In this document: positions 34,739-64,000 of the stretch, piece by piece
Layout: every line of letters begins with the position of its first letter
Numbering within the stretch: position 1 is the first letter of the stretch
Assembly: GCF_036365525.1 (NCBI RefSeq)
Contig: NC_090404.1
Coordinates: forward strand, 3,162,001 to 3,226,000
DNA length: 64,000 nt
DNA from: Heterodontus francisci
Lineage: Eukaryota
Reading direction: 5' to 3'
The notes under the pieces: generated by a model
The model's database searches: none
What the model was told of the DNA's origin: nothing
The model's input: only the letters and a program-made list of their open reading frames with translations
Made by a program: the position numbers and the translations under genes

Positions 34739-35301
34739 TAACATATATAATGGGTATACAAGCAATATATTCAAAAGTTTTTTTTACGTAGAATTGAATA
34801 GCATTTCCAGCACAGAAACAGGCCATTTTCAACCCAACTAGTCTATGCTGGCATTAATTCTCCTCACGAGCCTCCATCCACCCTATTTCATCTAACCCTC
34901 TCTGCATATACTTCTATTACTTTCAGCTTCACATACATATCTCGATTTCCTTCAAATGCATCTCAACTACACCATGTGGCACCACGTTCCTCATTCTAAC
35001 TACTCTCCGGGTAAAGAGGTTTCTCCTGAATTCTTTGTTGGATTCATTAGTGACTATCTTACATAATTGGGCCCTAGTTTTAGACTCATTCACAAATGGA
35101 AAAACCCTTCTGTAATTTCAACCATAAGTTATCAATCAGCCTTCTCTTTTGTTCCAGAGAAAAATGGTCCAGACAGTTCGGTCTTTCCTGATAGATTTAA
35201 TTACTGTTAATTGTAATTAGTTGGTGATACTTAATAATGAAACAACATTCTGACTATCATGCACGGAATTTAAAAACTACACGGAATTAGAATTCGCTTA
35301 C

Positions 35302-35358
35302 TAGGTTGCACCATTAGTTTGGTCCCAGATCCAAATATTAGCTGATTGATACGACTCA
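35302..35358 (-). other. TRAJ: J-alpha family A: SRINQLIFGSGTKLMVQP
   Basis: CACAGCA 35359, 12 bp, GCAGATACC; GTAAGC donor. Confidence 0.88.
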
Positions 35359-35678
35359 CACAGCATTACATGTTACTGCAGATACCTGATGCCAAGTGTA
35401 TAAGCTATTGATGAGATGAACTGCATGCTACATTTGTGGATTATCAATATTACAAGTTCAACTATTAACAAGTGTCATGTTTCCCATGTCATTCAAATCA
35501 ATTTAGGTTCATCCTCACACAATAACACTACAATTACACAATGTAAAATTATAGTTTAGTTTTGTCTATTTCTACGTGGTATCCATTGACAATCTGTACA
35601 TTATCTTGACCAGAATTCATAATTTTCTTGTAAACTAATTGACGTGGTCATTTTGAGGAATTATAATTGAGTTCTTAC

Positions 35679-35741
35679 CAGGATTAACAATGAGTTTGGT
35701 GCCTCCTCCAAATACCATTTTATCATATCCTCCAGAAGCCA
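35679..35741 (-). other. TRAJ: J-alpha family B: ASGGYDKMVFGGGTKLIVNP
   Basis: CACAGTA 35742, 12 bp, ACAAGAACT; GTAAGA donor. Confidence 0.92.
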
Positions 35742-35949
35742 CACAGTAACTGATCCCTTCACAAGAACTCAGGAGAGTGCTGGTTCCCGATGTACCATTA
35801 CTATCATCACTGATTTATTCTCATTGTCATTTCAATGACTTGAAATAACTCAGCAATCTAATTGTTATCTTCACTAGATTATTCATTAAAATTCTTTAAT
35901 TTCTTTTAGTCAGATTCGTGACATTATTCTTTCATAGGACTACACTTAC

Positions 35950-36009
35950 TGGGTACCACGATTAGTCTGGTCCCACCTCCAAAAATAAACTTGTAGCTCC
36001 CATCCCTCA
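35950..36009 (-). other. TRAJ: J-alpha family C: RDGSYKFIFGGGTRLIVVP
   Basis: CACAGCC 36010, 12 bp, ACAACAACC; GT donor. Confidence 0.9.
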
Positions 36010-36679
36010 CACAGCCCGACACTGCCTAACAACAACCTTCTGGATTAGTTATTTGTCTGTTTTACTGCTGCAATTGAAAGTAATAGCCACACATTTTGTC
36101 TGTTTACATATATGTTTTTATCCACCTATCTATCTCTCACTCTACATCTATCAATCCATCTGTGTACAAATAGGAGTAATGACTTAATGCTTCATGTATT
36201 ACATAGACAGGCATACATACATAAATATGTAGTAGCAACAGTGCATAATCAACCAAATCCACCCCCTGGTAATTATATTTGTTTAATGTTCATGAAATAA
36301 TTTTAACATTAAAATAATGTTCTAGCATTAGGAAAAAAATACACCACAGAAACAGGCTGTTCTGTCCAACTGGTCTATTCCAGCATTTTTGCTCCACAGG
36401 AACTTCTTCCCAGGCTCTTTATTTAATCCTACCAGGATATTCTTCAATTCCTTTCCCCCTGCTGTACTTATCCAGCTTCCCCTTAAATCCATACATGTTC
36501 CTAACCGCAACTATCCATGCCGTATCAAGTTCCACACTCCAAAATGAAGCAGCATAAATGTCAGAAAATTCAGGATTAATTGAACATATGGAGAAATTAT
36601 TTGATTCATTGTTGGCCGTACAGAGAACATACACGTGTGTCAATCGACAGATAGTCTATAGTTATTAATGAATACCTAC

Positions 36680-36742
36680 TTGGCTCCACAATTAACTTTG
36701 TTCCTTTTCCAAAGATAAGCTCATTGCCAATTCCAAAATTCA
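36680..36742 (-). other. TRAJ: J-alpha family D: NFGIGNELIFGKGTKLIVEP
   Basis: CACAGCA 36743, 12 bp, GCAAAAGCT; GTAGGT donor. Confidence 0.9.
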
Positions 36743-36951
36743 CACAGCATTGCATCCTTTAGCAAAAGCTCCCTTCATATTAACTGCAGTAATTGTTTGC
36801 TCATTCCGGCACCTATATTTGAACCCTTGACATCTTCCGATGCCATAATAGTGACACAAACCATTTTTAGAACAACATTGTCATTTATTAGGCAATCCTT
36901 GAGTTTTCTGTTCTAACATAGAAAACAGATATCCTTAAACATCACACTTGC

Positions 36952-37008
36952 TGGGTATAACCTGGAGTCTGGTCCCTGATCCAAAGATCAGCTTCACAGC
37001 AAGGTTCA
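36952..37008 (-). pseudogene. TRAJ: J-alpha family F, defective: NLAVKLIFGSGTRLQVIP
   Basis: Open frame, but heptamer AACAGCC (CAC lost) and GC donor. Confidence 0.8.
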
Positions 37009-37730
37009 AACAGCCTGATAGGCTGACACGAAACCAGCCAGCCATTCCCAGACATTACTTCACCTGTTGTTTCTTAAAGAACCATCCATATTTTCAGTTA
37101 TGTTTTGGAATGTTTACCTGAGCCTTTAGATTTATGACTCAGAAACTGTTAATATTTCCAATACCAATTAGACTTTAAACAGAATTGCATCAAATTTGTA
37201 GCCCAGAAACAGGTCATTCAGCCCAATTCATCTATGTCTGTACTCATGTCACACATGAGCCTCATCTCATCCTACATCATCTCACTCTTTCTGCATATCC
37301 ATCTGTTCCTTTCTCCACCGTGCATTTATCCTGCTTCACCTTAAATGCAGTTATGTTGTTCACATCAACTATTTCCTGTGGTAGCACGTTCCACATTCTC
37401 ACCACTCTCTGGGCAAGGAAGTTTCTCCTGAATTCCACATTGGATTTATTACTGATTATCTTATATTGACGACTCTTAGTTTAAATTTCCCAACAAGTGG
37501 AAAAAAATTGCTTTGTCTCCCCTATCAAACCCCTTCTTAATGTTAAAGACCTCTAATAGCTGATCCCTCTGCTGTGTGTTTTCTAGAGAAATGGTTCCTA
37601 GCCTGCTTAGTATTTCTTGATAGTTATTATTTAACGTTAATTATAAATAACTAACAATACTTATTAACAAAACAATATTTCGGCTTACATCATCATAATA
37701 AAAAAAAATAAAGAATTAGACTTCACTTAC

Positions 37731-37787
37731 TAGGTTCCACAATTAATTTGGCCCCAGATCCAAATGTTAGCTTATTGGCATTATTCA
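37731..37787 (-). other. TRAJ: J-alpha family A: NNANKLTFGSGAKLIVEP
   Basis: CACAGCA 37788, 12 bp, GCAGAAACC; GT donor. Confidence 0.9.
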
Positions 37788-38129
37788 CACAGCATTACAT
37801 ACCAGTGCAGAAACCCATTTATCTGATACCTATTATATAGAGTATCTGTGAAATGAACTGTATATTATATTTTTGGATTGTCAATATTCCAATTTAGATT
37901 GTTAACAAGTGACGAATATTGCATATTTCCCATCTCATTCAAATCAATGCAATTTCAATCAGCCTTACACTTTAATACTAACTATTACTCAATGTAAAAC
38001 TAGAGATTAATTTGATCTACCTCTGCTTGGTGTCCATTGACTATCTGTACATTATTTTGACCAGAATTCATTATTTGTTTGTAAACTAATCTGCATGGTC
38101 ATTTTGAAGAATGATTATTGAGTTCTTAC

Positions 38130-38192
38130 CAGGCTTAACATTGAGTCTGGTGCCTCCTCCAAATACCATTTTAGCATAGCCTGCAGATTCCA
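38130..38192 (-). other. TRAJ: J-alpha family B: ESAGYAKMVFGGGTRLNVKP
   Basis: CACAGTA 38193, 12 bp, ACAAGAACT; GT donor. Confidence 0.92.
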
Positions 38193-38400
38193 CACAGTAA
38201 CTGATCCCTTGACAAGAACTCAGGATAGTAATTGTTCCCTATGTACCACTGTAGTCACTACTGAATTAATCTCATTGGCGTTTCAATGACTTGAATTCAG
38301 TAAGCAAACTAATTGTTCTATTTTCTAGATTATTCATGACAATTCTTTAATTTCTTTAAATCAGATTTGTGACATTGTTCTCCCTTAAGACAACACTTAC

Positions 38401-38460
38401 TGGGTTCCACGATTAGTCTGGTCCCACTTCCAAAAATAAGCTTGTAGCTCCCAACATTCA
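38401..38460 (-). other. TRAJ: J-alpha family C: NVGSYKLIFGSGTRLIVEP
   Basis: CACAGCC 38461, 12 bp, ACAAAAACC; GT donor. Confidence 0.93.
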
Positions 38461-39074
38461 CACAGCCCTACACTGCCTAACAAAAACCTTCTGAGGTAAT
38501 TATTATTCTACATCTATCTTAATCTTGTAATTTAAAGTAGAGAGGCACAAATTTTACCTGTTCACTTTAAATATATGTTTTCATCTATTTCTCTACCAAC
38601 ATATAGGAATAGTAAATTGATGTTTCATAGACAGGCACATAGATGCATAAATATATAGAGGCATCAGTGCATATCAACAACAGACAGCCCTTGGCAATTA
38701 TATTTGCTCAATATCCATGAACTGATTTTATTATAATAATACATTACAAAGAAACAGGCGATTCTATCCAACTGGCCTATTCCAACATTTCTGCTCCACA
38801 TCAGCTTCCTCCCACCCTCTTTATCCAATCTTATCAGGGTATTGTTCTATCCCTTTCACCTTGCTGTACTTATCCAGCTTCCACTTAAATCCATACATGC
38901 TTCTCACTTTTGGAGCTTCATGTGGTCGCAAGTTACAGACTCCAAAACAAACTCTTACAATATGCAGGAACATTGAACAGACAGCAAAATTATTTGATTA
39001 ATTGTTGGCAGTACAGAGAACATACACATGTGCGTAAGTCAATAGATAGTCTATAGTTATTAATGAATACTTAC

Positions 39075-39131
39075 TTGGCTCCACAATTAACGTTGTCCCT
39101 TTTCCAAAGATATAGCCAACTCCAGCATTCA
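39075..39131 (-). other. TRAJ: J-alpha family D with in-frame 6-nt deletion: NAGVGYIFGKGTTLIVEP
   Basis: CACAGCA 39132, 12 bp, GCAAAAACT; GT donor. Confidence 0.88.
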
Positions 39132-40388
39132 CACAGCATTGCATCCTTTAGCAAAAACTGTCTTCAGATTTACTGCAGTCGTTTTTTTTTTGCTCATTCT
39201 GACAATGCCATATTCATGACACTATCTGTACAAATCGTTTTTACATGTCTATTGACATTAATTAGGCACACCTATTTTAATTATTATGATTTTCACTGAA
39301 GCATTACTAAATTTTCCAGTACAAAGCTAAGGCTTCAATTTATATATCTGACCCTCCGAATGCTTCCCCAGTATTTCAGAAAGTGCCACACTCTCTCAGT
39401 GCTTTCCTGAATTATCATCTTGGATTGTATATTTCATATGTAGTGTGTGGGTACACTTCATAATTTCCTGACAAACAGGATGGTCTGTTGAACCCAGTTA
39501 TGATTCCTGACACTTTTCTCTCCCAATTTCAGTCAGTTCTTTCATTAATGAGACCTTAGGTTGTTCTATTGGAATTGTGTTTCTTTATTATCCTGTAGTT
39601 ATCCTTATTATGGTAATTATGTTCCAGATTATTACCAGCATCAGTCTCCTTAATATAACTGAGGTAGAATTTTGGATAACATTTGGAATGTGATAAAAGG
39701 AACATCATGCAACTAAGTAATGCTAACAATAAACTGTTATGCATTGACATACTTTTTAAACAAATAAATGAGAGTAATATCTGATCAAACCTATTCTAAA
39801 ATAAGATGGATATGCAACTCAATCTCTGATCTAGCGCAATAATGTTGAGACCATTTGATGAGGTTACTTTCTGAGGGGCTTTATAATGTCTTCCTGAATA
39901 TTATTACACTATTGTTGAAAACTTTTAAATGAAAATTACGCACATGCCATTGCGAAAAGTCTATGATCACATTTAGTTAAAATGGCTCGCTATTACTGCA
40001 CAGCACAAGACAGCAGAAGTACATATTAGTTCCAACTCAATGTTCAACTAATGCAGATTTTGCGAGGAGCACAGAAAAGCTTTTGATGGAACATTAAGAG
40101 GGATGAAAATGTTTATAATGCAATTATGTACAATTAAATACTTATCGTCCAGAATTGTGTAAAGTCTGAAAAGTTTTATCCCAGTACTAACACCCTGTAT
40201 TCTTTGGAGAGTCACAGATGGGTCCAAATTATTGTTGGATGTTTCAAGAATGTCAAGCTCAATTGTGATATATATCAGTTTATTTTGAAGTTGAATAATT
40301 ATAAGACTAAAGGAGATTTAATGTGATTTATTTGACAGATAGTCTACTATTGGGAAAAAAAGGAACAGGGAGATATAAAACAACTTAC

Positions 40389-40448
40389 TGGGGTGAACTT
40401 GGAGCTCAGTCCCAGCTCCAAATATCACCTTGAAGGAGTCAGCACTCA
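40389..40448 (-). other. TRAJ: J-alpha family E: SADSFKVIFGAGTELQVHP
   Basis: CACACCA 40449, 12 bp, ACAAAAATC; GT donor. Confidence 0.87.
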
Positions 40449-40685
40449 CACACCATTACACCCCTCAACAAAAATCCTTTCCTTAACAATGATTCATCAC
40501 CCTGACACATTCCTAATTCACATTAAGAATCCCCTCACCGTGCTTGAAGTAGGCCATTTCCAAAATTTCATATCACAGCGGGGAGGGCCAAATTATGTAA
40601 AAGTTAATTGGATCAATATTTCAAAGAATTTGATGACATGCTTTTCTGTTCTAATACATAGAACTGAAATCCTTTAATATCTCAC

Positions 40686-40742
40686 TGGGTATAAAGTGGA
40701 GCCTGGTCCCTAATCCAAAAATCAGTTTATTAGCATGGTTTA
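40686..40742 (-). pseudogene. TRAJ: J-alpha family F, defective: NHANKLIFGLGTRLHFIP
   Basis: Heptamer position reads GACTGCC. Confidence 0.78.
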
Positions 40743-41445
40743 GACTGCCTGATAGGCTAACACAAAACCCTTTCCCAGCCTGCCATTCCCAGACATTACA
40801 TCACCTGTTGTTTATTAAAGAACAATACACATTTTGCGTTGTGTTTTGGAATGTTTATCCAAGCCTTTAAATTTATGACTCAGAAACTGTTAACATCGCC
40901 CACACCAACTAAAATCGCATTGAATGTTCAGCACAGAAAGAGGCCGTTTGGCCCAACGCATCTGTGCCCGTGTTCGTATTCCACATGAGCCTCATCTCAT
41001 TCTACTTCATCTCACCCTCTCTGCACATTCATCTGTTCCATTCTCCATCTATTTATCTAGCTTCCCCTTAAGAGCATCTATGCTATTTACATCAACTACT
41101 CCATGTGACAGCAAATTCCACATTCTCACAACTCTCTGGGTAATAAAGTTTCTCTGGAATTCTACATTGGATTTATTAGTTATGATCTTATATTGATGAT
41201 CCCTAGTTTTAGTCTGCCGACAAGTGGAAAAGTCTTTCCTATTCAAACCCCTTCTTAATGTTAAAGACCTGTAATAGTTGACCCCTTAGCCATGTATTTT
41301 CTAGGGAAATGGTCCCCAGCCTGTTTAGTATTTCTTGATAGTTATTATTTAACTTTAATTGCAAACAACCGATGATACTCATTAACAAAGCAATTTTTCC
41401 ACTAATAATATCATAATAAAAAATACAGAATTAAACTTCACTTAC

Positions 41446-41502
41446 TAGGTTCCACAGTTAGTTTGGTCCCAGATCCAAATGTTAGCTTGTTGATATTATT
41501 CA
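41446..41502 (-). other. TRAJ: J-alpha family A: NNINKLTFGSGTKLTVEP
   Basis: CACAGCA 41503, 12 bp, GCAGAAACC; GT donor. Confidence 0.92.
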
Positions 41503-41827
41503 CACAGCATGACAGACCAGTGCAGAAACCCCTTTACCTGTTGCCTATTATATAGACTATCCACGAAATGAACTGTATATGATATTTATGGATCAATATT
41601 GTAATTTAGATTTTTAACAAATGCTGAATATTGCATATTCCCCATTTCATTCAAATCAATGTAATTTCAATCAGTGAATCACATTTATACTAACTATTAC
41701 ACAATGTTCAACTAGAGTTTAATTTTGTCTGGATCTGCTTGGTGTCCATTGACAATCTGCACATTATTTTGACCACCATTTGTAATTTGTTCATAAAATA
41801 ATGTGCATGGTAATTTTGAGTTCTTAC

Positions 41828-41890
41828 CAGGATTAACAATGAGTTTGGTGCCTCCTCCAAATACCATATTACCATATCCTGCAGGATCCA
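41828..41890 (-). other. TRAJ: J-alpha family B: DPAGYGNMVFGGGTKLIVNP
   Basis: CACAGTA 41891, 12 bp, ACAAGAACT; GT donor. Confidence 0.92.
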
Positions 41891-42104
41891 CACAGTAACT
41901 GATCCCTTGACAAGAACTTAGGATTCCCTATGACATGTGCTGGTTCCCTATGTACCGCTGCAATCACTACTGATATATTCTCACTGGCGTTTCATTGACT
42001 TGAAATAACTAAGCAATCTAATTGTTTTACTTTCTAGATTATTCATGACAATTCCTTAGTTTCTTTCAATCTGATTTATGACAATTTCCTTTCCTAACAC
42101 TTAC

Positions 42105-42164
42105 TGGGTTCCACGATTAGTCTGGTCCCACTTCCAAAAATAAGCTTTCTGTCTGCAGTATTCA
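42105..42164 (-). other. TRAJ: J-alpha family C: NTADRKLIFGSGTRLIVEP
   Basis: CACAGCC 42165, 12 bp, ACAAAAACC; GT donor. Confidence 0.93.
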
Positions 42165-42837
42165 CACAGCCCTACACTGCCTAACAAAAACCTTCTGATT
42201 TACTTGTTATTAATTGTCTATCATATTGTTGAAATTCAAGGTAACAGCATTATTTTGCTTGTTCACTTTATATACATTTTTCCACCTATGCATCAGCTAT
42301 CTATTTTATTGTTCTGTCTATCTCTCACTCTCTATTTACATGTAGGAATAATGAAAAGCTTTGTACTGCATGACAAGCACATCGACACATAAATATATGG
42401 AGGCAACAGTGCACATCAACAAAAGCCACCCCTTAGCAATTATATTTGTTTAGTATTATTGAATTTATTTAAACATTATAATAATATTACATGACAAAGA
42501 ATTTACACCACATTAACAGACTGCTCCGTCCAATTGGCCTATTCTAACATTTCTGCTCCATAGGAGCTTCCTCCCGCCCACTTTATTTAATCCTATCAAG
42601 ATATTCTTCAATTCCTTTCTCGCTGTAGTAATTATCCAGCTTCCCCTTAAATCCACACATGCTACTTGCCTAAAAGCTCCATTTCGTAGCAAGTTACAGA
42701 CTCCAAAATGAAATGTTACAATATTCAGAAATGTTGAAGATATAGAGAAGATATATTGGATTGATTGCTGGCAGTACAGAGAACACACACACGTATGCAA
42801 GTCTATAGATGGTCTATAGTTATTAATGAATACCTAC

Positions 42838-42900
42838 TTGGCTCCACAGTTAACTTTGTCCCTTTTCCAAAGATGAGCTTAGAGCCAGCTCCAGTGTTCA
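42838..42900 (-). other. TRAJ: J-alpha family D: NTGAGSKLIFGKGTKLTVEP
   Basis: CACAGCA 42901, 12 bp, GCAAAAACT; GT donor. Confidence 0.93.
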
Positions 42901-44164
42901 CACAGCATTGCATCCTTTAGCAAAAACTCCCTTCAGATTTACTGTACTCGTTTTTGCTCATTCTGGCAACTATATTTGAATGCTTGGCATCATCCAATGC
43001 CATAATAGTGACACTATCTGTGCAAATCATTTTCACGTGTCCATTGACATTAATTAGGCATATCTATTTTCAATCATTCTGTTCATCAATCAAGCATAAC
43101 TAACTTTCCAGAAAAAAGCTAAGGCTTCGATTTATATATCAATCCCTCTGAATGTTCCCCAGTAATTCTGAAAGCGCTACACTTTCTCAATGCTTTCCTG
43201 AATTATCATCCTGGATTATATACTTAATGCACAGTATGTGAATACATCTCAGAACTTCCTAACAAACAGAATGGGCTGTTAATAACTGAACCAGGTTACG
43301 ATTTATGACACTTTAATCTCCCAATTTCAGTCAGTTCTTTCATTAATGAAACCTTAGGTTGTTCTATTGGAATCGTATTTCTTGATTATCCTATAGTTAA
43401 CCTCAATGGCTGGTAATTATGTACCAGATTATTACCAGCATTTGTGTCATTAATATAATTGAGGTAGAGTTATAGATAACATTTGGAATTTGAAAAAAAA
43501 ACATGCACCTAAATGTCAATAAACAATTATGCATTGACACATTTGTTATCCAATAACTAAGAGTGATAACTGATTAAACCTAATCCGAAATAAGATGGAC
43601 ATGCAATTCGCTCTCTGAACTAAAGCAGTAACGCTGAGACCATTTGATGAAGTCATTTTCAGATAGATCAATCACCTTATAATGTTTTCCTGGTCATTAT
43701 AACACTAGGTAAAATATTGTTGACAACTTTTTAATGAAAACTAGGCACACACCTTTGCTAAAAGTCTAAGATCACCATTTAATTAAAATTGTTCACTATC
43801 TCTACACAGTAGAAGAAAGCAGAAGTATGTATTAATTCCAATTCCATGTACGTTTTATACAGAATTTTCAAGGGCCATAAAAGAGCATTTAATGGAAAAT
43901 TAAGAACAATGACAATGGTTGTAATGCAATTAAGCCCATCAGCAATGTATCATGCAGAAACGCGTACTGTCTGAAAGTCTTTATCTCAGTACTGACTAAC
44001 ACCCTATATTCTTTGGAGAGTCACAGATGGGTCCAAATTGGTGTTGGATGTTTCAAGAATGTCAACTCCAATGTGCTAAACATCCAATAATATGAAGTTG
44101 AATAATTGTAGGTGGTGAAGACTAAAGAAAGAAAAAAAAGAACTTGGAGATGAAAATAACTTAC

Positions 44165-44224
44165 TGGGTTGCACTTTGAGCTTAGTCCCAGCTCCAAATA
44201 TCACCTTGAAGGAGTTAGCAGTCA
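44165..44224 (-). pseudogene. TRAJ: J-alpha family E with defective RSS: TANSFKVIFGAGTKLKVQP
   Basis: Coding and donor intact; heptamer CTCATCA 44225 (CAC lost), 12 bp, ACAAAAATC. Confidence 0.8.
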
Positions 44225-44473
44225 CTCATCATTACACCCCTCAACAAAAATCCTTTCCTTAATAATGATTCATCTTCCTGACACATTCCTAATTCACATT
44301 AAGAACATCCCCTCACCGTGCTTGAAGTAGAATCATTTCCAAATTAGGTATTCAGATCAGTGTGGACCAAGTTACGTGAAACTTAATTTGATCCATATTT
44401 TAATTAATTTGATGACATGCTTTTCTTTACTGTTCTAACATACAGAACTGAAATCCCTGAACATCTCACTCAC

Positions 44474-44524
44474 TGGGTATAACCTGTAGCCTGATCCAAA
44501 AATCAGCTTATTTAGCCAGGTTCA
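44474..44524 (-). pseudogene. TRAJ: J-alpha family F pseudogene
   Basis: 7-nt deletion after FGSG; heptamer position ATCTGCC. Confidence 0.78.
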
Positions 44525-45219
44525 ATCTGCCTGATATACTAAAACCTTTCTCAGACATTACATCACCTGTTGTTTATTTTAAAAAAAAGTCTGTATTTTG
44601 AGTTATGTTTTGGGACATTTACCTAAGCCTTTAAATTCATGACTCAGAAATTGTTAATATCTCCAATACCAATTAAGTTTTACATAGAATTGCATTGAAA
44701 TTGCAGCACAGAAACAGGCCATTTGGCCCAACTCATCTATGCTTGTACTCATGTTACACATGAGCCTCCTCTCATCCTGTATCATCTCATCCTCTCTGCG
44801 TATCCATTTGTTCCTTTCTCCATCGTCTATTTACCTATCTTCCCTTTAAAGCCCCTATGCTTTTAAAATCAACTACGCCCTGTGGTAGCAAGTTCCATAT
44901 TCTCACCAGTCTCTGGGTAAAAAAAAAAGTGTCTCCGGAATTCTATTTTGGATTTATTAGTGATTATCGTACATTGATGATGCCAACAAGTGGAAAAATC
45001 TTCCCTTTGTCTCTCCTATCCAAACCCCTACTTCATGTTAAAGAGCTCTAATAGTTAACCCCTCAGCCGTTTGTTTTCTAGGGAAATGGTCCCCAGCCAG
45101 CTTAGTATTTCTTGATAGTTATTATTTAACTTCAGTTGTGAATAATTAACAATACTTATGACCAGAACAATGTTTTCACTAATAATATCATAAAAAATAC
45201 AGGATTAAGCTTCACTTAC

Positions 45220-53581: not shown

Positions 53582-54153
53582 CTACACTGCCAAACAAAAA
53601 CCTTCTGAATGAATTATTATTCTTTGTCTATCTTAATTTTGCAATTTGCTTGTTCACTTTGCATGTATATTTTCACCTACCTATCAGCTATCTATTTCAC
53701 ATTCAGTACACAAATACATACATATAAAGAGGTATCAGAGCGTATCAACAAAAGGCTCCCCTTGGCAATTACATTTGTTTAACGTTGATGAATTAATTTT
53801 AGCTTTACAATAATATTGCATTAGAAAAAAATGACTTCACAGTTCTGTCCAACTGGTCTATTCCAGTGTTTCTGCTCCACAGGATCTTCCGCCTACCTTC
53901 TTTATCTGATCCTATCTGGATATTTTTCTATTCCTTTCTCCCTGCTGTAATTATCCAGCTTCCCCTTAAATCCATACATGATCCTCACCTAAAAACCTTC
54001 ATCAAGTTAATCTCCACAAAACAAAGCAGCCTACATGTTCCAAAATTCACGATTAATTGAACACCTAGAAACATTATTTGCTTCATTACAGGCCGTTCAG
54101 AGCACATACACATGTATGTAATAGATAACATACAGTTAATAATGAATACCTAC

Positions 54154-54216
54154 TTGGCGCCACAGTTAACTTTGTCCCTTTTCCAAAGATAAGCTTATTG
54201 GCAGCTCCAAGATGCA
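54154..54216 (-). other. TRAJ: J-alpha family D: HLGAANKLIFGKGTKLTVAP
   Basis: CACAGCA 54217, 12 bp, GCAAAAACT; GT donor. Confidence 0.92.
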
Positions 54217-55523
54217 CACAGCATTGTATCCTTTAGCAAAAACTCCCTTCAGATTTAGTGTCGTAATGCTTTGCTCATTCTGGCAACTATATTTGAATAC
54301 TTGGCTTCGTTCAATGCCATAATACTGACACTGTCTGTACAAACTGGTTCGATACATCCATTGACGTTTATTAGGCATATCTATTTTTAATTATTCTGAT
54401 CATCTCTCAAGCACAACTAATTTTCCATTAAAAAGCTAAGGCATCGATTTATATATCAATCTCTCTCAATACTTCTCCAGAACTTCCTAAAATGCTACAC
54501 TCTCTCAGTGCTTTCCTCAATTATTATCCTGGATGATATATTTCATATGTAGTGTGTGAACACATCTCATAATTTCCTATCAAACAGGATGATCTGTTAA
54601 CAATTGAACCCAGTTATGATTCCTAACACGTTTCTCTCACAATTTCAGTTGGTTGTTTCATTAATGAAATCTTAGGTTGTTCTATTGGAATCGTATTTCT
54701 TTATTATCCTGTAGTTAACCTCAGTTGCTGGTAATTATTTTCCAGATTTTGACTAGCAACAGTGTCTTCAATTGGATGTAGAATTATAGATAACATTTGG
54801 GATTTGATTAAAAAAACACTATGCAACTAAGTAACAATAATAATTATGTATTGACATACATTTTAAACCAATAACTAAAGTAGTCACTGATCAAACCTAA
54901 TCCGAAATAAAGTCGACATGCAACTGACTCTCTGAACTAAAGCAATAACGTTGAGACAATTTGATGAGACCATTTTCTGATGCAGCAATCACCTTATAAA
55001 GTCTTCCTGATCATTATCACACAAGGTAAAATATTCTTGACAATATTTTTAATGCAAATTAGAACACGTCATTGCTAAAAGTCTAAGATCACCATTTAAT
55101 TAAAATTGCTCACTATCTCTACACAGCATTAGAAAGCAGAGGTATGTATTAATTCCAACTCTGTGTACGTTTTATACAGAATTTGCAGGGGCAAAAAAAA
55201 AAAGAATCTAATGGAAAATTAAGAGGAATGGAACGGTTAAAATGTAATTGAGCAAACCACCATACTTATCATGCAGAAACCTGTATTGTCTTAAAGTCCT
55301 GACCTCAGTACTAACTAACACCCTATATTCTTTGGAGAGTCACAGATGGGTCCAAAATAGTGCTGGATGTATCAAGAGTGTCAACACCAATTGTACTAAA
55401 CGTCAGATATTTTGCAGTTGAATAAGTATGGATGTGAAGACTAAAGAAGGGATTTAATGTGATTTATTTAGGAGCTAGTCTATTGGAGAATAAAAAAAAA
55501 CATGGAGATGTAAAACAACTTAC

Positions 55524-55583
55524 TGGGTTGAACTTTGAGCTCAGTCCTAGCTTCAGATATCACCTTGACAGAGTTAGCACTCA
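55524..55583 (-). pseudogene. TRAJ: J-alpha family E lacking FGXG: SANSVKVISEARTELKVQP
   Basis: CACACCA 55584, 12 bp, ACAAACATC; donor intact; FGAG changed to SEAR. Confidence 0.8.
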
Positions 55584-55830
55584 CACACCATTACACCCCT
55601 CAACAAACATCCTTTCCTTAAGAATGATTAATCTCCCTGTCACATTCCTAATTCACATTAAAAACATCTCCTCATGGTGCTTGAGGTAGATCATTTCCAA
55701 ATTACATATTCACAATGATGAGGGCCAAATGATGTAAAACTAATTTGATCTATATTTTAATTAATTTGATGACATGCTTTTCTTTACTGTTCTAACACAT
55801 AAAACAGACATCCTGAAATATCTCCATTAC

Positions 55831-55859
55831 TAGATATAACATAGAGCCTCGTCCCTGAT
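55831..55859 (-). pseudogene. TRAJ: J-alpha family F remnant (5' part and RSS deleted)
   Basis: Homologous position; a deletion joins it to the CR1 relic. Confidence 0.6.
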
Positions 55860-56137
55860 TTATTAGTAATTATCTTATGTTGCTGACCCCTATTTATAGT
55901 CTCCCAACAAGTGGAAAAATCTTCTCTTTGCTTCCCCTACAAAACACTGTCTTAATGTTAAACACCTCGAATAATTGACCCCTCTGCTGTGTGTTTTCTA
56001 GATAAATGACAAACAGCCTGTTTAGTATTTTTGATAGTTATTTAACTTTAATTGCAAACAATTGACGAAATTATTAACAACCCAATGTTTTTACTAATAT
56101 TATCATCATAAAAAATACGGAATTAAACTTCACTTAC

Positions 56138-56194
56138 TAGGTTGTACAATTAGCTTGGTCCCAGATCCAAATGTTAGCTTATCAAAATTGTTCA
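56138..56194 (-). other. TRAJ: J-alpha family A: NNFDKLTFGSGTKLIVQP
   Basis: CACAGCA 56195, 12 bp, GCAGAAACT; GT donor. Confidence 0.92.
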
Positions 56195-56531
56195 CACAGC
56201 ATTACATACCAGTGCAGAAACTCATTTACCTGATGCCTATTATATAGACTATCCACGAAATGAACTCTACATTGTATTTATGGATTATCAATACTCCAAG
56301 TTAGATGTTTAACAGATGCTGAATTCTGCATATTTCCAATTTCATTCAAATCGATGTAGTTTCAAACAATCTCACACGTTAGTATTAGTTATCACACAGT
56401 TTAAAGCTAGAGTTCAGTTTTGTTTAGATCTGCTTGGTGTCTATTGACAATAGATTATGTTGACCAGAATTCACTGTTTACTTGTACACTAATTTGATGA
56501 TAATTTTGAGGAACTATAATTGAGTTCTTAC

Positions 56532-56594
56532 CAAGATTAACAATGAGTTTGGTGCCTACTCCAAATACCATTTTACCATATCCTGTAGAATCCA
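56532..56594 (-). other. TRAJ: J-alpha family B: DSTGYGKMVFGVGTKLIVNL
   Basis: CACAGTA 56595, 12 bp, ACAAGAACC; GT donor. Confidence 0.92.
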
Positions 56595-56798
56595 CACAGT
56601 AACTGATCCCTTTACAAGAACCCAGGATAGTGCTGGTTCCCATGTACCACGACTGTCACCATTATTTTTCCCATTGTCATTTCAACGACATGAATTAAGT
56701 AAGCAATCTCATTGTTCTATTTTATAGATTATTCATACAATTCTTTAATTTCTTTTTGTCAGCTTTGTGACATTATTATTTCAAAATACAACACTTAC

Positions 56799-56858
56799 TG
56801 GGTTCCACGATTAGTCTGGTACCACTTCCAAAAATAAGCTTGTCAGTTCCAACATTCA
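56799..56858 (-). other. TRAJ: J-alpha family C: NVGTDKLIFGSGTRLIVEP
   Basis: CACAGCC 56859, 12 bp, ACAAAAACC; GT donor. Confidence 0.93.
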
Positions 56859-57470
56859 CACAGCCCTACACTGCCTAACAAAAACCTTCTATCTTACTGT
56901 TGCAATTTAAAGTGAACAGGCACCCATTTTACCTGCTCATTTTACATATGTATTTTCATCTATTTATCTCTCTAGGTACATATAGGAACAATAACTTTGT
57001 GATTCATATATTGCATAGACACGTGCATAGGCACATAAATATATAGAGGCATCACTGTATATCAATAAAAGACCCCCCATGGCAATTATATTTGTTTTTG
57101 AGGTAATTATAACACTTTAATAATATTACATTACAAAGAATTTACATCTGAGAAACAGGCTATTCCGTCCAACTGGTCTATTCCAGCATTTCTGTTGGAC
57201 ACGTGATTCTGCCCACCCTTTTACTCTAATCCTATCAGGCTCTTCCTCTAATCCTTTCTCCATGCTGTACTTATCCACCTTCCCCTTCAATCCACACACA
57301 CTATTTGGCTCAAGACCTCCATATGGTAGCAAGTTCCATACTCCAAAGTGAAGTGGCATAAATGTTCCAACATTCAGGAATGTTGAACATATAGAGAAAT
57401 TATTTTATTCAGAGAACATGCATATGTAAGTAAGTGCATAAATAGTCTACAGTTATTAATGAATACTTAC

Positions 57471-57533
57471 TTGGCTCCACAGTTAACTTTGTCCCCTTTC
57501 CAAAGATAAGCTTATAGCCACCTTCAGCATTCA
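57471..57533 (-). other. TRAJ: J-alpha family D: NAEGGYKLIFGKGTKLTVEP
   Basis: CACAGCA 57534, 12 bp, GCAAAAACT; GT donor. Confidence 0.93.
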
Positions 57534-58207
57534 CACAGCATTACGTCCTTCAGCAAAAACTCCCTTAAGACACACTGTAGTAATGTTTTTCTACATCTCG
57601 CAGCTATACTTGAATACTTTGCATCATCCAATGTCACAATAGTGACAGTATCTGCACAAACCGTTTTTACATGTCCATTGACATAAGTTAGGAATATCTA
57701 GTTTTAATTATTCTGTTTTAAAGTTAAGGCTACAATTTATATATCAGTACCTCCAAATGCTTCCCCACGTACTTCTGAAAGTGCTATGCTTTCTCAGTGC
57801 TTTCCTGAATTATCATCCTGGATTATATATTTCATTTGTAGTGTGTGGATAGATCTCATAATTTCCTAACAAACAGGATGGGCTGTTAATAGCTGAACCA
57901 GTTTATGATTTATGACACTTTTCTATCCCAATTTCAGTCAGTTCATTCATTAATGAAACTTTAAGTTGTTCTATTGAAATTATATTTCTATTTATCCTGT
58001 TGTTAATCTCAATGGTTGGTAATTCTGTTCCAGATTATTACCAGCATCAGTGTCTTTAATATAATTGAGGTAGAATTATAGATAACATTTGGAATTTTAT
58101 TAAAAGCACCATGCAAACAAATAACAATAATTATTAATTTCTAGATTATTCTTTAATTTCCTTTCAGTCACATTTGTGACATTATTTTTGCCTAAGAAAA
58201 CACTTAC

Positions 58208-58267
58208 TGGGTTCCACGATTAGTCTGGTCCCACTTCCAAAAATAAGCTTGATGTTTCCATCCCTCA
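58208..58267 (-). other. TRAJ: J-alpha family C: RDGNIKLIFGSGTRLIVEP
   Basis: CACAGCC 58268, 12 bp, ACAAAAACT; GT donor. Confidence 0.93.
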
Positions 58268-58911
58268 CACAGCCCTACACTGCCTAACAAAAACTTACTG
58301 TGTTAATTATCATTCTTTGCCTATTTAACCATTGCAACTGAAGTAACAGCCACCACTTTAACTTTTCATTTCTCATATATATTTTCATCTACCTCTCTAT
58401 CTCTGTCTACTTACATCTAGGAATAATAACTTAGTGCTTCATGTATTGAATAGACAGCCAGATAGATACATAAATATATAAACGCATCAGTGCATATAAA
58501 AAAACACCTCTTGGAAATTATATTTGCTTAATGTTGATGAATTAATGTTAACATTATGATAATATTACACGACACAGTATCTACATCACAGAAACAGGCT
58601 GTTCCTTCTAACTAGTCTATTCCAGCGTTTTTGTTCCACATGAGCTTCCTCCCACCCTCTTTCTCTAATCCTATCAGAGTACTCTTCAACTCCATTCTCC
58701 CCTTCTGGACTTATCCACCTTCCCCTTAAATTTATCCATGCTACTCGCCTCAACTACTTCATGTGGTGTCAAGTTACAGACTCCAAAATGAAATGTTACA
58801 ATATTCAGAAATGCTGAAGATACAGAGAGATTATTTGATTGATTATTGGCAGCACAGAGAACATATACATGTATGTAAATGGATAGTCAATAGTTATGAA
58901 TGAATACCTAC

Positions 58912-58974
58912 TTGGCTCCACAGTTAACTTCGTCCCTTTCCCAAAGATGAGCTTATAGCCAGCTACAACATTCA
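58912..58974 (-). other. TRAJ: J-alpha family D: NVVAGYKLIFGKGTKLTVEP
   Basis: CACAGCA 58975, 12 bp, A-rich nonamer at 58994; GT donor. Confidence 0.93.
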
Positions 58975-59689
58975 CACAGCATTGCATCCTTTAGCAAAAA
59001 ACCCCTTCATATTTACTGTAGCAATTTATTTGCTCATTCTGGCACCTATATTTGAATACTTGGCATAGTCCTATGCCATAATAGTGACACTATCTGCACA
59101 AATAATTTTACATGACTATTGACATTTATTAGGCATATTTATTGTATTTTTTCTGTTTTCCATGGAAACATGACTGATTTTACTTTACAAAGCTAAGGCT
59201 ACAATTTATATATCAGTCCCTCTGAATGCTTCCCAGTACTTCTGAAAGTGCTATGCTCTCTCGGTGCTTTCCTGAATTGTAATCCTAGATTATATATTTC
59301 ATATGTAGTGTGCGGATATATCTCATAATTTCCTAACAAACAGGCTGTTAATAATTGAACCAGGTTATGATTCCCAGCACATTTCTCTGCCAATTTCAGT
59401 CGGTTCTTTCATTCATGAAACCTTAAATTGTTCTATTGAAATTGCATTTCTTTATTATCCTGTAGTTAACCTCAATGGGTGGCAATTATATTCCAGATTA
59501 TTATCAGAATCAGTGTCTTTAATATAATTGAAGTAGAATTGTAGATAACATTTGAAATTTGATATAACACCGTGCAACTAACTAACAATAAACAATCTTA
59601 TTGTTTCTTTTTCTAGATTATTCATGGTAATTCTTTCATTTCTTTTCAATCGGTTTTGTGACATTATTCTTTCACGAGGTAACACTTAC

Positions 59690-59749
59690 TAGGTTCCACA
59701 ATTAGCCTGGTCCCATTTCCAAAAATAAGCTTGTTGCTTCCATCCCTCA
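59690..59749 (-). other. TRAJ: J-alpha family C: RDGSNKLIFGNGTRLIVEP
   Basis: CACAGCC 59750, 12 bp, ACAAAAACC; GT donor. Confidence 0.93.
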
Positions 59750-60391
59750 CACAGCCTTACACTGCCTAACAAAAACCTTCCTGTTAATTATTATTCAGCG
59801 TCTATGTTCTCATTGAAATTTAAAGTAAACAGGCGCCATTTTCACTTTTTAATTTCACATATATATTTTCATCTACCTCTCCACATCTATCTACCATCAT
59901 ATAGGAATATAACTTAGTTCTTCATATAGACAGATACATAAATATATAAATATATGGAGGCATTAGTGCACATCGAAATCCACCCCTTGCCAATTATATG
60001 TGCTTCAAGTTGAGGAATTAATTTTTAACATTATAATAATATTATATTTCATAGAATCTACACCACACAAACAGGCTGTTCTATCCAACTGGTCTACTCC
60101 CGAGTTTCTGCACCATATGAACTTCCTACCACCCTCTTTATCTAACCCTATCAGGGTATTGTTCTATTTCTTTCTCTCTGCTGTACTGACCCAGCTTCCC
60201 TTAAATTTATCCATGCTACTAGCCTCAATTACTCCATGTGGTATCAATTTACAGACTCCAAAATGAAATGTTGCCATATTCAGAAATCTTGAAGATATAG
60301 AGAAATTATGTGATTCATCGTAGGCAATGCCAGAGAATATAAACATGTATGTACGTGGATAGATAGTCCGTAGTCATTAATGAATACCTAC

Positions 60392-60454
60392 TTGGTACCA
60401 CAGTTAACTTCGTCCCTTTTCCAAAGACGAGATTAGTACCAGTGCCAGCATTCA
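60392..60454 (-). other. TRAJ: J-alpha family D: NAGTGTNLVFGKGTKLTVVP
   Basis: CACAGTA 60455, 12 bp, GCAAAAACT; GT donor. Confidence 0.93.
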
Positions 60455-61158
60455 CACAGTATTGCATCCTTTAGCAAAAACTCTCTTCAGATTTACTGTA
60501 ATAATGTGTTTGCTTCTCTTTAGGAACTATATTTAAATACTTGGCATTGTCAAATGCCAGAATAATGATGGTATCTGTACAAATCGTTGTTACATGACCA
60601 TTGACATTAATGAGGCGTATCTCATTTTTAATTATTCTGCTTTCCACTCAAGAATAACACATTTTGCATTAAAAAGCTAAGGCTTCGAATCAGTCCTTCT
60701 GAATGCTTCCCCAGTACTTCTGAAATTGCTACACTCAGTGCTTTCCTGAATTATCATCCTGGATTGTATATTTTATATGTAGTGTGTGAATACACATCAC
60801 AATTTCCTAACAAACAAGATGGGCTGTTAACAATTGCACCCAGTTATCTTTCCTGACACTTTTCAATCCCACTTCCACTCTTTCCTTCATTAATGCAACC
60901 TTAGGTCGTTCTATTGGAATCGCCTTTCTTTATTATCCTGTAGTTAACCTCAATGGCTGGTAATCATGTTCCAGATTATTACCAGCATCATTGTCTTTAA
61001 TATAATTGAGGTGGAATTATAGATAACATTTGGAAGTTGATAAAAACACCATGCAACTAAATAAGAATAATTGATCCATTTTCTAAATTATTTATGACAA
61101 TTCTTTACTTTCTTTTCAATAAGATTTGTGAGATTATTCTTCATAAGACAACACTTAC

Positions 61159-61218
61159 TGGGTTCCACGATTAGTCTGGTCCCACTTCCAAAAATAAGCT
61201 TGATGCCTGCATCCTTCA
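61159..61218 (-). other. TRAJ: J-alpha family C: KDAGIKLIFGSGTRLIVEP
   Basis: CACAGCC 61219, 12 bp, ACAAAAACC; GT donor. Confidence 0.93.
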
Positions 61219-61831
61219 CACAGCCCTACACTGCCTAACAAAAACCTGCTGAGTTCATTATTATTCTTTGCTCATTTTACCATTGCAATTTGAAGCAATA
61301 GCCACCACGTTAACTTTTTCATTTCACATATATATTTTCATCTACCTCTCTGCCTACATATAGGAATAATAACATAGTGCTTCATGTATTGCATAGACAG
61401 CCACATAGATACATAAATATATAAACGCATTGGTGCATATCAAAAGCCACCCCTTGCCAATTTTATTTGCTTAATGTTAAATTAATATTAACAATATAAT
61501 AATATTACATTGCACAGTATCTCCACCACAGATACAGGCTGTTCTATCCAACTGGTCTATTCTGTTCCACATGAGCTTCCTCCCACCCTCTTTCTCTAAT
61601 CCAATCAGGGTACTCTTCGATTCCTTTCTCCCCTTCTGTACGTATCCTGCTTCCCCTTAAATTTATCCGTGCTCCTCGCCTCAACAACACCATGTGGTGT
61701 CAAGTTACAGACTCCAAAATGAAATGTTATTATCTCCAGAAATGTTGAAGATATAGAGAGATTATGTGATTGATTGTTGGCCGTACACATATATGTGAGT
61801 GTAGTGTCTATAGTTATTAATGAATACCTAC

Positions 61832-61894
61832 TTGGTTCCACAGTTAACTTTGTCCCTTTTCCAAAGATAAGTTTATTGCCAACTCCAGTGTTCA
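61832..61894 (-). other. TRAJ: J-alpha family D: NTGVGNKLIFGKGTKLTVEP
   Basis: CACAGTA 61895, 12 bp, GCAAAAACT; GT donor. Confidence 0.93.
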
Positions 61895-62615
61895 CACAGT
61901 ATTGCATCCTTTAGCAAAAACTCTCTTCAGCTATAATGTTGTTAAATGATGCTTATTTTGACAGCTATATATGAATATTCGGCATCACCTATGTCATAAT
62001 AGTGACACTATATGTACAAATCGTTTTTCCAAGACCTTTGACATTGGTTAGGTATATCTATTTTTAATTGTTCGGTTTTCCACTCAAGGCTAAAGCTTTT
62101 TCATTAAAAAGCTAAGGCTTCGATTTATATATCAGTCCGTTTGAATGCTACCCCAGTACTTCTGAAATTGTTACACTCTCTGAGTACTTCAGTGAACTAT
62201 CATCCTGGATTATAGATTTTATATGCAGTGTGTGGAGGCATCTCACAATTTTCTAACAAGCAGGATGGGCTGTTAACAATTGAACTCAGTTATGATTCCT
62301 GACATTTTTATCTCTCAATTCCAGTCAGCTCCTTCATTGATTAAACCTTAGGTTGTTCTATTGAAATTGCATTTCTTTATTATCCTGTAGTCAACATCAA
62401 TGGCTAGTAATTATGTTCCAGATTATTACCAGATTCACTGTCTTCAATATAATTGAGGTAGAATTACAGATGACATTTGGAATTTGAAAAACACACAATT
62501 CAACTAAGTAACAATAAGCTATCTAATTGTTCCATTTTCTATATTATTCATGACAATTCTTTAATTTCTTTTCATTCAGATTTGTGACATTATTCTTTCA
62601 GAAGAAAACACTTAC

Positions 62616-62675
62616 TGGGTTCCACGATTAGTCTGGTCCCACTTCCAAAAATAAACTTGAAGTTTCCATCCCTCA
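62616..62675 (-). other. TRAJ: J-alpha family C: RDGNFKFIFGSGTRLIVEP
   Basis: CACAGCG 62676, 12 bp, ACAAAAACT; GT donor. Confidence 0.92.
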
Positions 62676-62850
62676 CACAGCGCTACACTGCCTAACAAAA
62701 ACTTACTGTGTTAATTATTACTCTTTGTCTAATTTACCATTGCAATTTAAAGTAAACAGACACCACTTTAACTTATTCATTTAACACAAATATTTTCATC
62801 TACCTCTTTATCTCTATTTACCTACATATAGGAATAATAACTTAGTGCTT

Positions 62851-63830
62851 CATACGAACATACGAATTAGGAGCAGGAATAGGCTACTCGGCCCCTCAAG
62901 CCTGCTCCACCATTCAATAAGTTCATGGCTGAACTGATTACTCTACATTTCCACCTACTCCAGATAACCTTCACCCCCTTGCTTATCAAGAATCTATCTA
63001 TCGCTGCCTTAAAAATATTCAAAGACTCTGCTTCCACCGCCTTTTGAGGAAGAGAATTCCAAAGACTCAGGACACTCTGAGAGAAAAACAAATCTCCTCA
63101 TCTCTGTCTTAAGTGAGCGACCCCTTATTTTTAAACAGTGACCCCCAGTTTGAGATTCTCCCACAAGGGGAAACATCCTTTCCACATCCACCCTGTCAAG
63201 GCCCCTCAGGATCTTATATGTTTCAATCAAGTCGCCTCTTGCTCTTCTAAACTCCAGTGGATACAAGCCTAGCATGTCCAACCTTTCCTCATAAGACAGT
63301 CTGCCTATTCAGGTTTAGTCTCGTAAACCTTCTCTGAACTGCCTCCAAAGCATTTACATCCTCCAGATGTAGTCTCACCAATGCCCTGTATAACTGAAGC
63401 ATAACCTCCCTACTTTTGTATTCAATTCCCCTTGTGATAAATGATAACATTCTAATAGCTTTCCTAATTACATGCTGTACCTGCATACTAACCTTTTGCA
63501 ATTCATGCACTAGGACACCCAGATCCCTCTGCATCTCAGAGCTCTGCAATCTCTCACCATTTAGATAATATGCTTCTTTTTTATTCTTCCTGCCAAAGTG
63601 AACTATTTCCCACTTTCCCACATTATATTCCATTTGCCAAGTCTTCACCCACTCAATTATCCCGTCGGAGCCTCCTTATGTCCTCCTCACAAGATACCTT
63701 CCTACCTATCTTTGTATCATCAGCAAATTTAGCTACCATACCTTCATCTCAGTCATTTATATAAATTGTAAAAAGTTGAGGCCCCAGCACAGATCCCTGT
63801 GGCACACCACTCGTTACATCCTGCCAACCA
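62851..63830 (-). mobile_element. Relatively young CR1 LINE inserted into one C+D cassette
   Basis: ORFs 63289-63648 and 63009-63281 (WQMEYNVGK, LYRALVR, RGDLIETYKILRG); (CATACGAA)n tail; absent from sister cassettes. Confidence 0.9.
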
Positions 63831-64000
63831 GATAGGCACATAGATATATAAATATTTAGAGGCATCAGTGAATATCAAAAGATAACACTTGAGAATCATA
63901 TTTACTTAATATTGATGAATTCATTTAAACATTATTATAATATTACATTCCACAGAATTTACACCACAGAAGCAGGCTTTTCCATCCAACTGGTCTATTC

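What the first reader, a model, noticed from the sequence alone, without database searches (positions are those of the whole stretch)
34790..64000. J-alpha repertoire built by two nested tandem cassettes
Seen: a six-J unit (A-F; periods 2429, 3715, 3922, 3795, 3714, 3261 bp) that carries two CR1 relics along. A deletion junction near 58130 then creates a C+D unit repeated every ~1.46 kb. 46 of the 51 Js come from six founders and the intergenic DNA still aligns. Human and mouse TRAJ arrays do not retain such visible cassette homology, so this is a readable record of how a long J-alpha array forms. Copy-number variation between individuals is predicted.
Basis: partly seen in the sequence, partly recalled or inferred. 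Interest (0 to 1): 0.7.

Follow-up and report, generated by a model that had tools for sequence, protein, structure and literature searches.

The report
Cassette-built shark T-cell joining array
Most T-cell receptor alpha joining segments in this window, probably a shark's, sit in tandem copies of one multi-gene block, and the codons that would touch antigen changed about twice as fast as the DNA between the genes, likely because selection favoured new variants; block copying itself is a known way for such loci to grow.

Summary
Observation confirmed: 51 J hits, 46 from six families, periods exactly as listed, shared C+D junction near 58,120-58,135. The locus is TRA/TRD (Calpha in the window, Cdelta about 78 kb beyond it). 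The array runs on past the window: 117 Jalpha hits, 87 cassette-derived, in three tiers (8-J ancestor, 6-J unit, 2-J C+D unit x8), not two. LINE relic 2 sits where J families G and H were lost. Copies are old (74-82% identical, star-like tree); only units 4 and 5 show recent exchange (531-bp exact tract), so the predicted copy-number variation is weakly based and could not be tested. New here: with intergenic DNA as clock, amino-acid changes in CDR3-encoding J codons run 2.0-2.5x faster than intergenic DNA, synonymous ones about 1x, framework 0.2x; 73 intact copies give 72 different peptides. Published bamboo-shark J coordinates are periodic too; mouse and elephant ones are not. The mechanism (homology-unit duplication) is known for V genes; I found no paper describing it for a shark Jalpha array. 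The scan noted the same pattern before in another genome (e1-9138091).

The parts
21843..21947 (-). TRAC transmembrane exon (coding part)
   Evidence: Translation; all 22 PDB matches are TCR alpha/delta constant chains, best alignment to an alpha-type tail
22326..22610 (-). TRAC Ig C1 exon
   Evidence: Pfam C1-set 1e-8, DUF1968 below cut-off; splice joint 22234/22326 in 3 of 4 RNA-guess runs
28203..34228 (-). Five singleton J-alpha segments (not cassette-derived)
   Evidence: no intergenic self-homology
34782..37180 (-). Unit U1: relic 1, J A B C D F (E deleted, junction 36897/36904; F broken). Proximal array edge is the 3' tail of relic 1
37181..40895 (-). Unit U2: A B C D E F
40896..44684 (-). 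Unit U3: A B C D E F (E heptamer altered, F broken)
40910..41330 (-). LINE relic 1 (ORF2 C-terminus plus 3' end), example copy; present in all 7 proximal units and 4 distal units
   Evidence: blastn; tblastn with a LINE ORF2 C-terminal frame from L011, E 5e-4 to 3e-15
42491..42710 (-). LINE relic 2 (about 220 bp 3' end), example copy; 15 copies, only in six-J and C+D units; sits where about 1.7 kb holding J families G and H was lost
44685..48616 (-). Unit U4: A B C D E F, with a 151-bp local duplication leaving the A fragment at 45213-45244
46505..47035 (.). 531-bp tract identical to 50293-50823 (U4/U5 exchange; makes the only identical J pair)
48617..52340 (-). Unit U5: A B C D E F
52341..55856 (-). 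Unit U6: A B C(broken) D E(broken) F(remnant); deletion junction 55849/55857
55857..58130 (-). Unit U7: A B C D; J-A 56138-56194 lies in an RNA-guess contig flanked by non-germline letters on both sides
58115..58136 (.). First C+D junction; same breakpoint in all 8 copies, in a TAA(A/G)CAAT microhomology
58131..64000 (-). C+D repeats (3.5 copies in the window, 8 in all, about 1.46 kb each)
62847..63833 (-). Younger 5'-truncated LINE insertion inside the fourth C+D copy

Best explanation
This is the J-alpha array of a T-cell receptor alpha/delta locus, and most of it consists of tandem copies of a multi-J block whose CDR3-encoding codons then diverged faster than the surrounding DNA, likely under diversifying selection. 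Shown: order, families, junctions, relic distribution, rates. Inferred history: (1) an eight-J block (A B C G H D E F) that already held LINE relic 1 was duplicated several times (distal copies, 66-73% blast identity); (2) in one copy a LINE 3' fragment (relic 2) replaced about 1.7 kb with G and H, giving the six-J unit, which amplified to seven copies; (3) one microhomology-joined rearrangement created a C+D unit, which amplified to eight copies at nearly the same depth in time; (4) later deletions, pseudogenisation of E and F, a young LINE insertion and patchy exchange between U4 and U5. Inferred function: shark Valpha-Jalpha joints keep most germline J codons, so each new copy adds repertoire only once its 5' codons differ; selection would then favour amino-acid changes there while holding RSS, TG start, phase, FGXG framework and donor.
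For: Locus order D-like segment, 24 J hits, Cdelta, 117 J hits, Calpha. Family string ABCDF ABCDEF ABCDEF (A) ABCDEF ABCDEF ABCDE ABCD (CD)x8 ABCGDEF ABCGHD CGDEF ABCDEF ABCG(H)DEF. C+D copies form one clade, 98/98, with end branches about 0.11 and short inner branches. Same junction in 8 of 8 C+D copies. Relic 2 edges coincide with the loss of homology to distal units. Rates on trees built from intergenic DNA, 39 Js (A 7 of 7, B 7 of 7, C 14 of 14, D 11 of 15): CDR3 codon positions 1+2 2.58x [2.02-3.03], position 3 1.24x [0.90-1.72], FR4 positions 1+2 0.18x; 0 of 5000 intergenic window draws and 0 of 3000 base-matched draws reach the CDR3 rate; 17 disjoint pairs give 64 of 180 differences against 37.8 expected at positions 1+2 (p=9e-6) and 19 of 90 against 18.9 at position 3. 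Codon model: nonsynonymous 2.35x, synonymous 1.08x, dN/dS about 2.2, p=0.0007. 5 CpGs in 39 CDR3 parts; 1 of 2139 inter-family pairs shares an 11-mer there. 73 of 73 intact cassette Js are in phase 2, 71 start with TG, 72 peptides are distinct, matching the pattern in PMC10322711; its bamboo-shark row gives 4.0 nt mean J trimming and 46% joints without insertions.
Against: Only 21 CDR3 codon columns carry the test, family C carries most of it (B alone not significant, p=0.075). The CDR3/pre-Phe split was drawn after seeing the peptides; for the whole 5' part the rate is 1.58x. Treating six suspect mosaic or U5 copies as missing lowers it to 1.95x, dN/dS 1.8, p=0.017, and the whole-5' dN/dS test to p=0.055. 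Synonymous sites in FR4 run at only 0.45x, so if the J core is homogenised or constrained the synonymous baseline is uncertain. Family E shows no acceleration (0.51x), which fits its decay but also shows the effect is not general. Microhomology explains only 28% of bamboo-shark joints, and a nurse-shark study reports N/P nucleotides in most joints (PMC5931798), which weakens the proposed reason for selection. No absolute date; no orthologous sequence from another species; the taxon (shark) is inferred, no call named it.
Confidence: 0.7

Rival explanations
1. Neutral birth-and-death: cassettes amplified by drift and the CDR3 codons are merely unconstrained; the excess comes from multi-nucleotide events, hidden paired indels or short conversion tracts.
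For: Some copies look mosaic (C at 67777 and D at 46757/50545 have spacer or 3' flank like another family); dropping suspects weakens the signal; FR4 synonymous rate 0.45x suggests exchange in J cores.
Against: Release from constraint predicts 1x, not 2-2.6x. Third positions stay neutral, the pairwise test (which conversion cannot inflate) holds, all 19 intact C copies keep one length, and inter-family shared words are 1 of 2139 pairs.
Confidence: 0.2
2. A local mutator (germline RAG open-and-shut joints or germline AID activity) raises the change rate at J 5' ends without selection.
For: Sharks hypermutate TCR alpha somatically (PMC5931798); germline RAG activity at shark Ig loci is recalled, not checked.
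Against: The bases next to the heptamer (TG) are almost invariant and lengths are kept; the peak is at codons -8 to -4 from Phe, not at the coding end; synonymous positions are not raised; the junctions examined are not at RSSs; family E is slow.
Confidence: 0.05
3. The array is a young, unstable repeat driven by crossing-over between the LINE relics, so copy number varies between individuals.
For: The proximal edge is the relic-1 tail and two deletions end inside relic 1 (55857, 70691); U4/U5 share 531-, 227- and 121-bp exact tracts; a two-J tandem copy-number variant is reported for catfish TRBJ13-14 (PMC8656973).
Against: Copies are 74-82% identical with long end branches; the distal edge has no relic-1 copy; junctions join unrelated sequence or short microhomology, not relic to relic; same-sample DNA contigs list no long-sided joint that skips a unit (list was cut, contigs drop variants).
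Confidence: 0.15
4. Assembly artefact (expanded or chimeric repeats).
For: A second contig (G000:C1869) duplicates window 16800-49366 with one mismatch; the 531-bp exact tract could be a collapsed consensus.
Against: Copies differ by about 20%; same-sample contigs of 416-1030 bp match with 0 other letters across units including the 58130 junction (possibly the source sample, so not independent); summed depth at 50292 is 14.3 against about 7-8 for single contigs, fitting two real copies.
Confidence: 0.02

Closest known systems
Homology units of TRAV/TRDV genes (cattle, PMC4289303; catfish, PMC8656973; passages read)
   Same: Multi-gene DNA blocks copied in tandem with their intergenic DNA, variable gene content, pseudogenes carried along collaterally (E, F here).
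   Different: Those units hold V genes and are 4-157 kb; here they hold J genes, 1.5-4 kb, in three nested tiers. The cattle paper reports mammalian TRAJ order as conserved one-to-one; the catfish paper reports TRAJ subgroups and singles scattered, with homology units in the V region.
TRAJ arrays of cartilaginous and ray-finned fishes (Giorgetti et al. 2023, PMC10322711; text parts 1-2 of 9, passages, supplement files 14, 15 (3 of 12 parts), 17 rows)
   Same: 12-RSS, phase 2, TG start, FGXG; size in range (63-156 Js listed for five sharks); bamboo-shark coordinates show repeated spacing doublets (73 against 19.9 expected).
   Different: In what I read the paper does not describe cassettes or test selection on J codons ('duplicat' occurs 3 times, none about J cassettes).
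J-level duplications in teleosts (catfish TRBJ13-14 tandem variant; 'many TRAJ duplicated' in Atlantic salmon, PMC8559430; passages)
   Same: J genes multiply by duplication, sometimes polymorphic.
   Different: Small or undescribed units; no reconstructed multi-J cassette history.
Selection on human TRAJ (balancing selection near TRAJ37, PMC13396459; passages)
   Same: Germline J-alpha variation shapes CDR3-alpha and is under selection.
   Different: Allelic, one gene, within a species; here the signal is between paralogues after duplication.

Membership tests
TRAJ segments of a TRA/TRD locus | 5' RSS with 12-bp spacer, FGXG frame, GT donor | tested here: met
   41 of 51 window hits and 97 of 117 in the array pass all checks
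TRAJ segments of a TRA/TRD locus | Position between Cdelta and Calpha | tested here: met
   C1-set exons with TCR alpha/delta-type TM exons on both sides; distal TM ranks delta first; the window TM matches alpha and delta about equally, so alpha rests on position
TRAJ segments of a TRA/TRD locus | No D segment serving this J set; D upstream of the Jdelta set | tested here: met
   One D-like 12/23 element in 224 kb, beyond the second J cluster (strict pattern, could miss degenerate ones)
TRAJ segments of a TRA/TRD locus | Fish-type phase and TG microhomology start | tested here: met
   94 of 97 intact Jalpha in phase 2, 92 of 97 start TG; 0 of 15 intact Js of the second cluster start TG
TRAJ segments of a TRA/TRD locus | Rearranged to V and spliced to Calpha | tested here: inconclusive
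   Calpha exons spliced in 3 of 4 RNA-guess runs; one 475-nt contig covers exactly J-A 56139-56196 with 28 and 389 unlike letters on either side; those letters were not shown
Antigen-receptor homology units | Recurrent multi-gene order with intergenic identity | tested here: met
Antigen-receptor homology units | Variable content and collateral pseudogenes | tested here: met
   Loss of E, F, G, H in some units; 5 of 5 window F copies broken
Antigen-receptor homology units | Breakpoints at paired LINE copies (a proposed cause, not obligatory) | tested here: not met
   No relic-to-relic junction; distal edge lacks relic 1
CR1 LINE relic | Homology to the C-terminus of an RT-encoding LINE ORF2 | tested here: met
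   Relic 1 by tblastn to a frame adjacent to an RVT_1 hit; relic 2 only by 66-75% blastn to relic 1
CR1 LINE relic | Placement in the CR1 clade rather than a related LINE clade | not testable with these tools
   No repeat library; the CR1 label is recalled

The most novel reading that the evidence does not exclude
Shark J-alpha repertoires are built by repeated multi-J cassette amplification followed by positive selection on germline CDR3 codons, a germline route to CDR3-alpha diversity that mammals replaced with junctional diversity; the aligned intergenic DNA gives a built-in neutral clock that makes selection on J segments directly measurable.
Probability: 0.55. Interest if true: 0.65.

Novelty: new variant of a known kind. 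Interest (0 to 1): 0.5.

Why it matters
How 60-150 J-alpha segments arose and why they differ is hard to read in mammals, where J order is old and conserved. Here the duplication steps can be reconstructed, and the intergenic DNA allows a rate test that J segments alone are too short for. If the signal holds across sharks, it ties the germline-guided V-J joining of fishes to selection on inherited CDR3 residues. It also matters practically: near-identical J frameworks complicate repertoire mapping in sharks.

Tried and rejected
No run on record as RNA was listed; four RNA-guess runs are contigs from one sample, so no J usage ranking. First donor-offset annotation was wrong and was redone. The free synonymous rate did not move from its start and was redone on a grid. 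First rate estimate with 200-bp flanks over all tiers used poorly aligned flanks and was replaced. Deletion versus duplication at 58130: U7 plus C+D clade not rejected (AU p=0.34), nor two control groupings (0.32, 0.07). LINE-to-LINE crossing-over as the trigger: rejected for the junctions seen. Dating: not attempted beyond noting a low shark mutation rate (PMC10587355, abstract only). Three shark TCR papers were not held (PMC7909615, PMC7039070, PMC3222143) and Glusman 2001 was not read; they or their supplements may describe shark J organisation. Searches that found no description of shark J-alpha cassettes; of selection on paralogous J codons. Scan look-ups by place and by sequence were empty. 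Zebrafish spacing was borderline (48 against 37.5; 217 of 5000).
Full report
Observation. A self-blastn shows multi-kb off-diagonals from 34,782 onward at 72-88% identity. A profile search finds 51 J-like hits on the minus strand, and clustering on 150-bp flanks puts 46 of them in six families of the reported order. The six periods match to the base. 36 of the 46 are intact; all five F copies and three of five E copies have a damaged RSS, motif or donor. With J cores masked, 78% of the cassette zone is self-homologous against 0% and 2.7% of the singleton zones, and shuffling removes all off-diagonals. An intergenic probe hits only this locus and a redundant contig, which equals window 16800-49366 with one mismatch.

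Locus. The window is G000:C34:3162001-3226000; I fetched 160 kb beyond it ('ext' counts on from the window). A C1-set exon and a TCR alpha/delta-type transmembrane exon lie at 21.8-22.6 kb, spliced in three of four RNA-guess runs. A second constant gene with a delta-ranked tail lies at ext 139.8-141.9 kb, then 24 more J hits, one D-like segment and V exons. So the 117 J hits between the two constant genes are J-alpha by position. 94 of 97 intact ones are in phase 2 and 92 start with TG, the fish pattern of PMC10322711. That the animal is a shark is inferred; no call named it.

Architecture. From Calpha outward: 5 singletons, ABCDF, ABCDEF, ABCDEF, an A fragment, ABCDEF, ABCDEF, ABCDE, ABCD, eight CD, ABCGDEF, ABCGHD, CGDEF, ABCDEF, ABCG(H)DEF, 25 singletons. 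87 of 117 hits are cassette-derived. The distal units are more divergent (66-73% blast identity) and hold two further families, so the ancestor likely had eight Js. Relic 1 is in proximal and distal units; relic 2 is in 15 proximal copies and no distal one, and homology to distal units stops at one edge of relic 2 and resumes at the other, skipping about 1.7 kb with G and H. An insertion-associated deletion is the simplest reading (inference). All eight C+D junctions share one breakpoint in a TAA(A/G)CAAT microhomology, so one event was amplified; deletion and head-to-tail duplication give the same junction and the tree does not separate them.

Age and exchange. The intergenic C-D block of 15 copies is 74-82% identical apart from two pairs (95% and 87%); the tree has a supported C+D clade, end branches near 0.11 and short inner branches, i.e. 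old bursts. U4 and U5 range from 84% to 100% along their length, with exact tracts of 531, 227 and 121 bp, which points to later exchange. Same-sample DNA contigs match the assembly across units (not independent). The low shark mutation rate (PMC10587355, abstract) may explain why intergenic homology is still visible (inference). Copy-number variation was not testable and is plausible mainly at U4/U5.

Selection. 73 intact cassette Js encode 72 different peptides. Using trees and substitution models from intergenic DNA for 39 proximal Js (D lost three copies of other length and one identical copy), CDR3-encoding codons change at 2.02x the intergenic rate, positions 1+2 at 2.58x and position 3 at 1.24x; heptamer 0.18x, nonamer 0.43x, spacer 0.65x, FR4 positions 1+2 0.18x. 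No draw from intergenic windows (0 of 5000) or base-matched sites (0 of 3000) reaches this; 17 disjoint pairs agree, 13 of 17 individually. A codon model gives nonsynonymous 2.35x, synonymous 1.08x, p=0.0007 against equal rates. Against: 21 codon columns, a post hoc boundary (whole 5' part 1.58x), family B not significant alone, weaker values without six suspect copies (dN/dS 1.8, p=0.017; whole 5' part p=0.055), and an unexplained 0.45x synonymous rate in FR4. I reached this result before seeing that the scan had noted the like in another genome; that note is not support.

Comparison. Repeated spacing doublets number 125 against 41.8 expected here, 73 against 19.9 in bamboo shark (0 of 5000 shuffles each), 0 against 1.5 in mouse, 1 against 1.3 in elephant, 48 against 37.5 in zebrafish (coordinates from PMC10322711 supplement file 15; lists partly incomplete). 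Homology-unit duplication is established for V genes (PMC4289303; PMC8656973), J duplications are noted in salmon and catfish, and selection on a human TRAJ is reported (PMC13396459). PMC12227049, PMC2275272, PMC12698447 and PMC5931798 were read as passages and did not describe J cassettes there. Seven searches found no account of shark J-alpha cassettes, but three shark TCR papers were not held.

Verdict. Real, well supported, a new variant of a known mechanism, probably general in sharks. The duplication history is near certain; diversifying selection on the CDR3 codons is likely; the copy-number prediction is weak. Interest 0.5.

Noticed in passing
L009-L012 (G000:C34 about 3,309,300-3,343,400; ext 147.3-181.4 kb): The J cluster upstream of Cdelta has 24 hits (15 intact), far more than the 1-6 J-delta listed for mammals and teleosts in the papers read; 16 fall in two families and 70% of ext 154-176.5 kb is self-homologous, so it is also cassette-built.
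   Followed up: partly
L012 about 7,700-7,750 (ext 181,745): D-like segment of 16 nt between a 12-RSS and a 23-RSS.
   Followed up: partly
L015-L016 (ext 207-215 kb): Three V exons on the minus strand, two similar and one of a different type; could be NAR-TCR-type cassette parts (recalled, untested).
   Followed up: no
window J cores, families A-D: Synonymous sites in FR4 evolve at 0.45x and the family C RSS spacer at 0.31x the intergenic rate; unexplained (conversion or splicing/RAG constraint).
   Followed up: partly
L001 3,777-3,876 (ext 67,777) and window 46757/50545: Possible inter-family mosaics: a C copy with D-like spacer and A-like 3' flank, D copies with a C-like heptamer side (by eye).
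   Followed up: partly
window 56237-56574: An RNA-guess contig (depth 3.9) enters J-B 20 nt inside its 5' end after 47 unlike letters and shows three clustered changes at 56532-56535; could be a rearranged, hypermutated pre-mRNA or error.
   Followed up: no
window 23002-26612: Run X5 contigs show about 17 substitutions and several indels in the J-C intron but very few in the cassette zone, while same-sample DNA contigs list none outside LINE relics in 42.8-62.8 kb; heterozygosity may be uneven.
   Followed up: no
window 9-5655 and 6640-8678: Minisatellites of 42 bp (135 copies) and 37 bp (55 copies) downstream of Calpha.
   Followed up: no
G000:C1869 (L017-L020): A 32,567-bp contig identical but for one base to window 16800-49366, probably a redundant haplotig.
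   Followed up: yes
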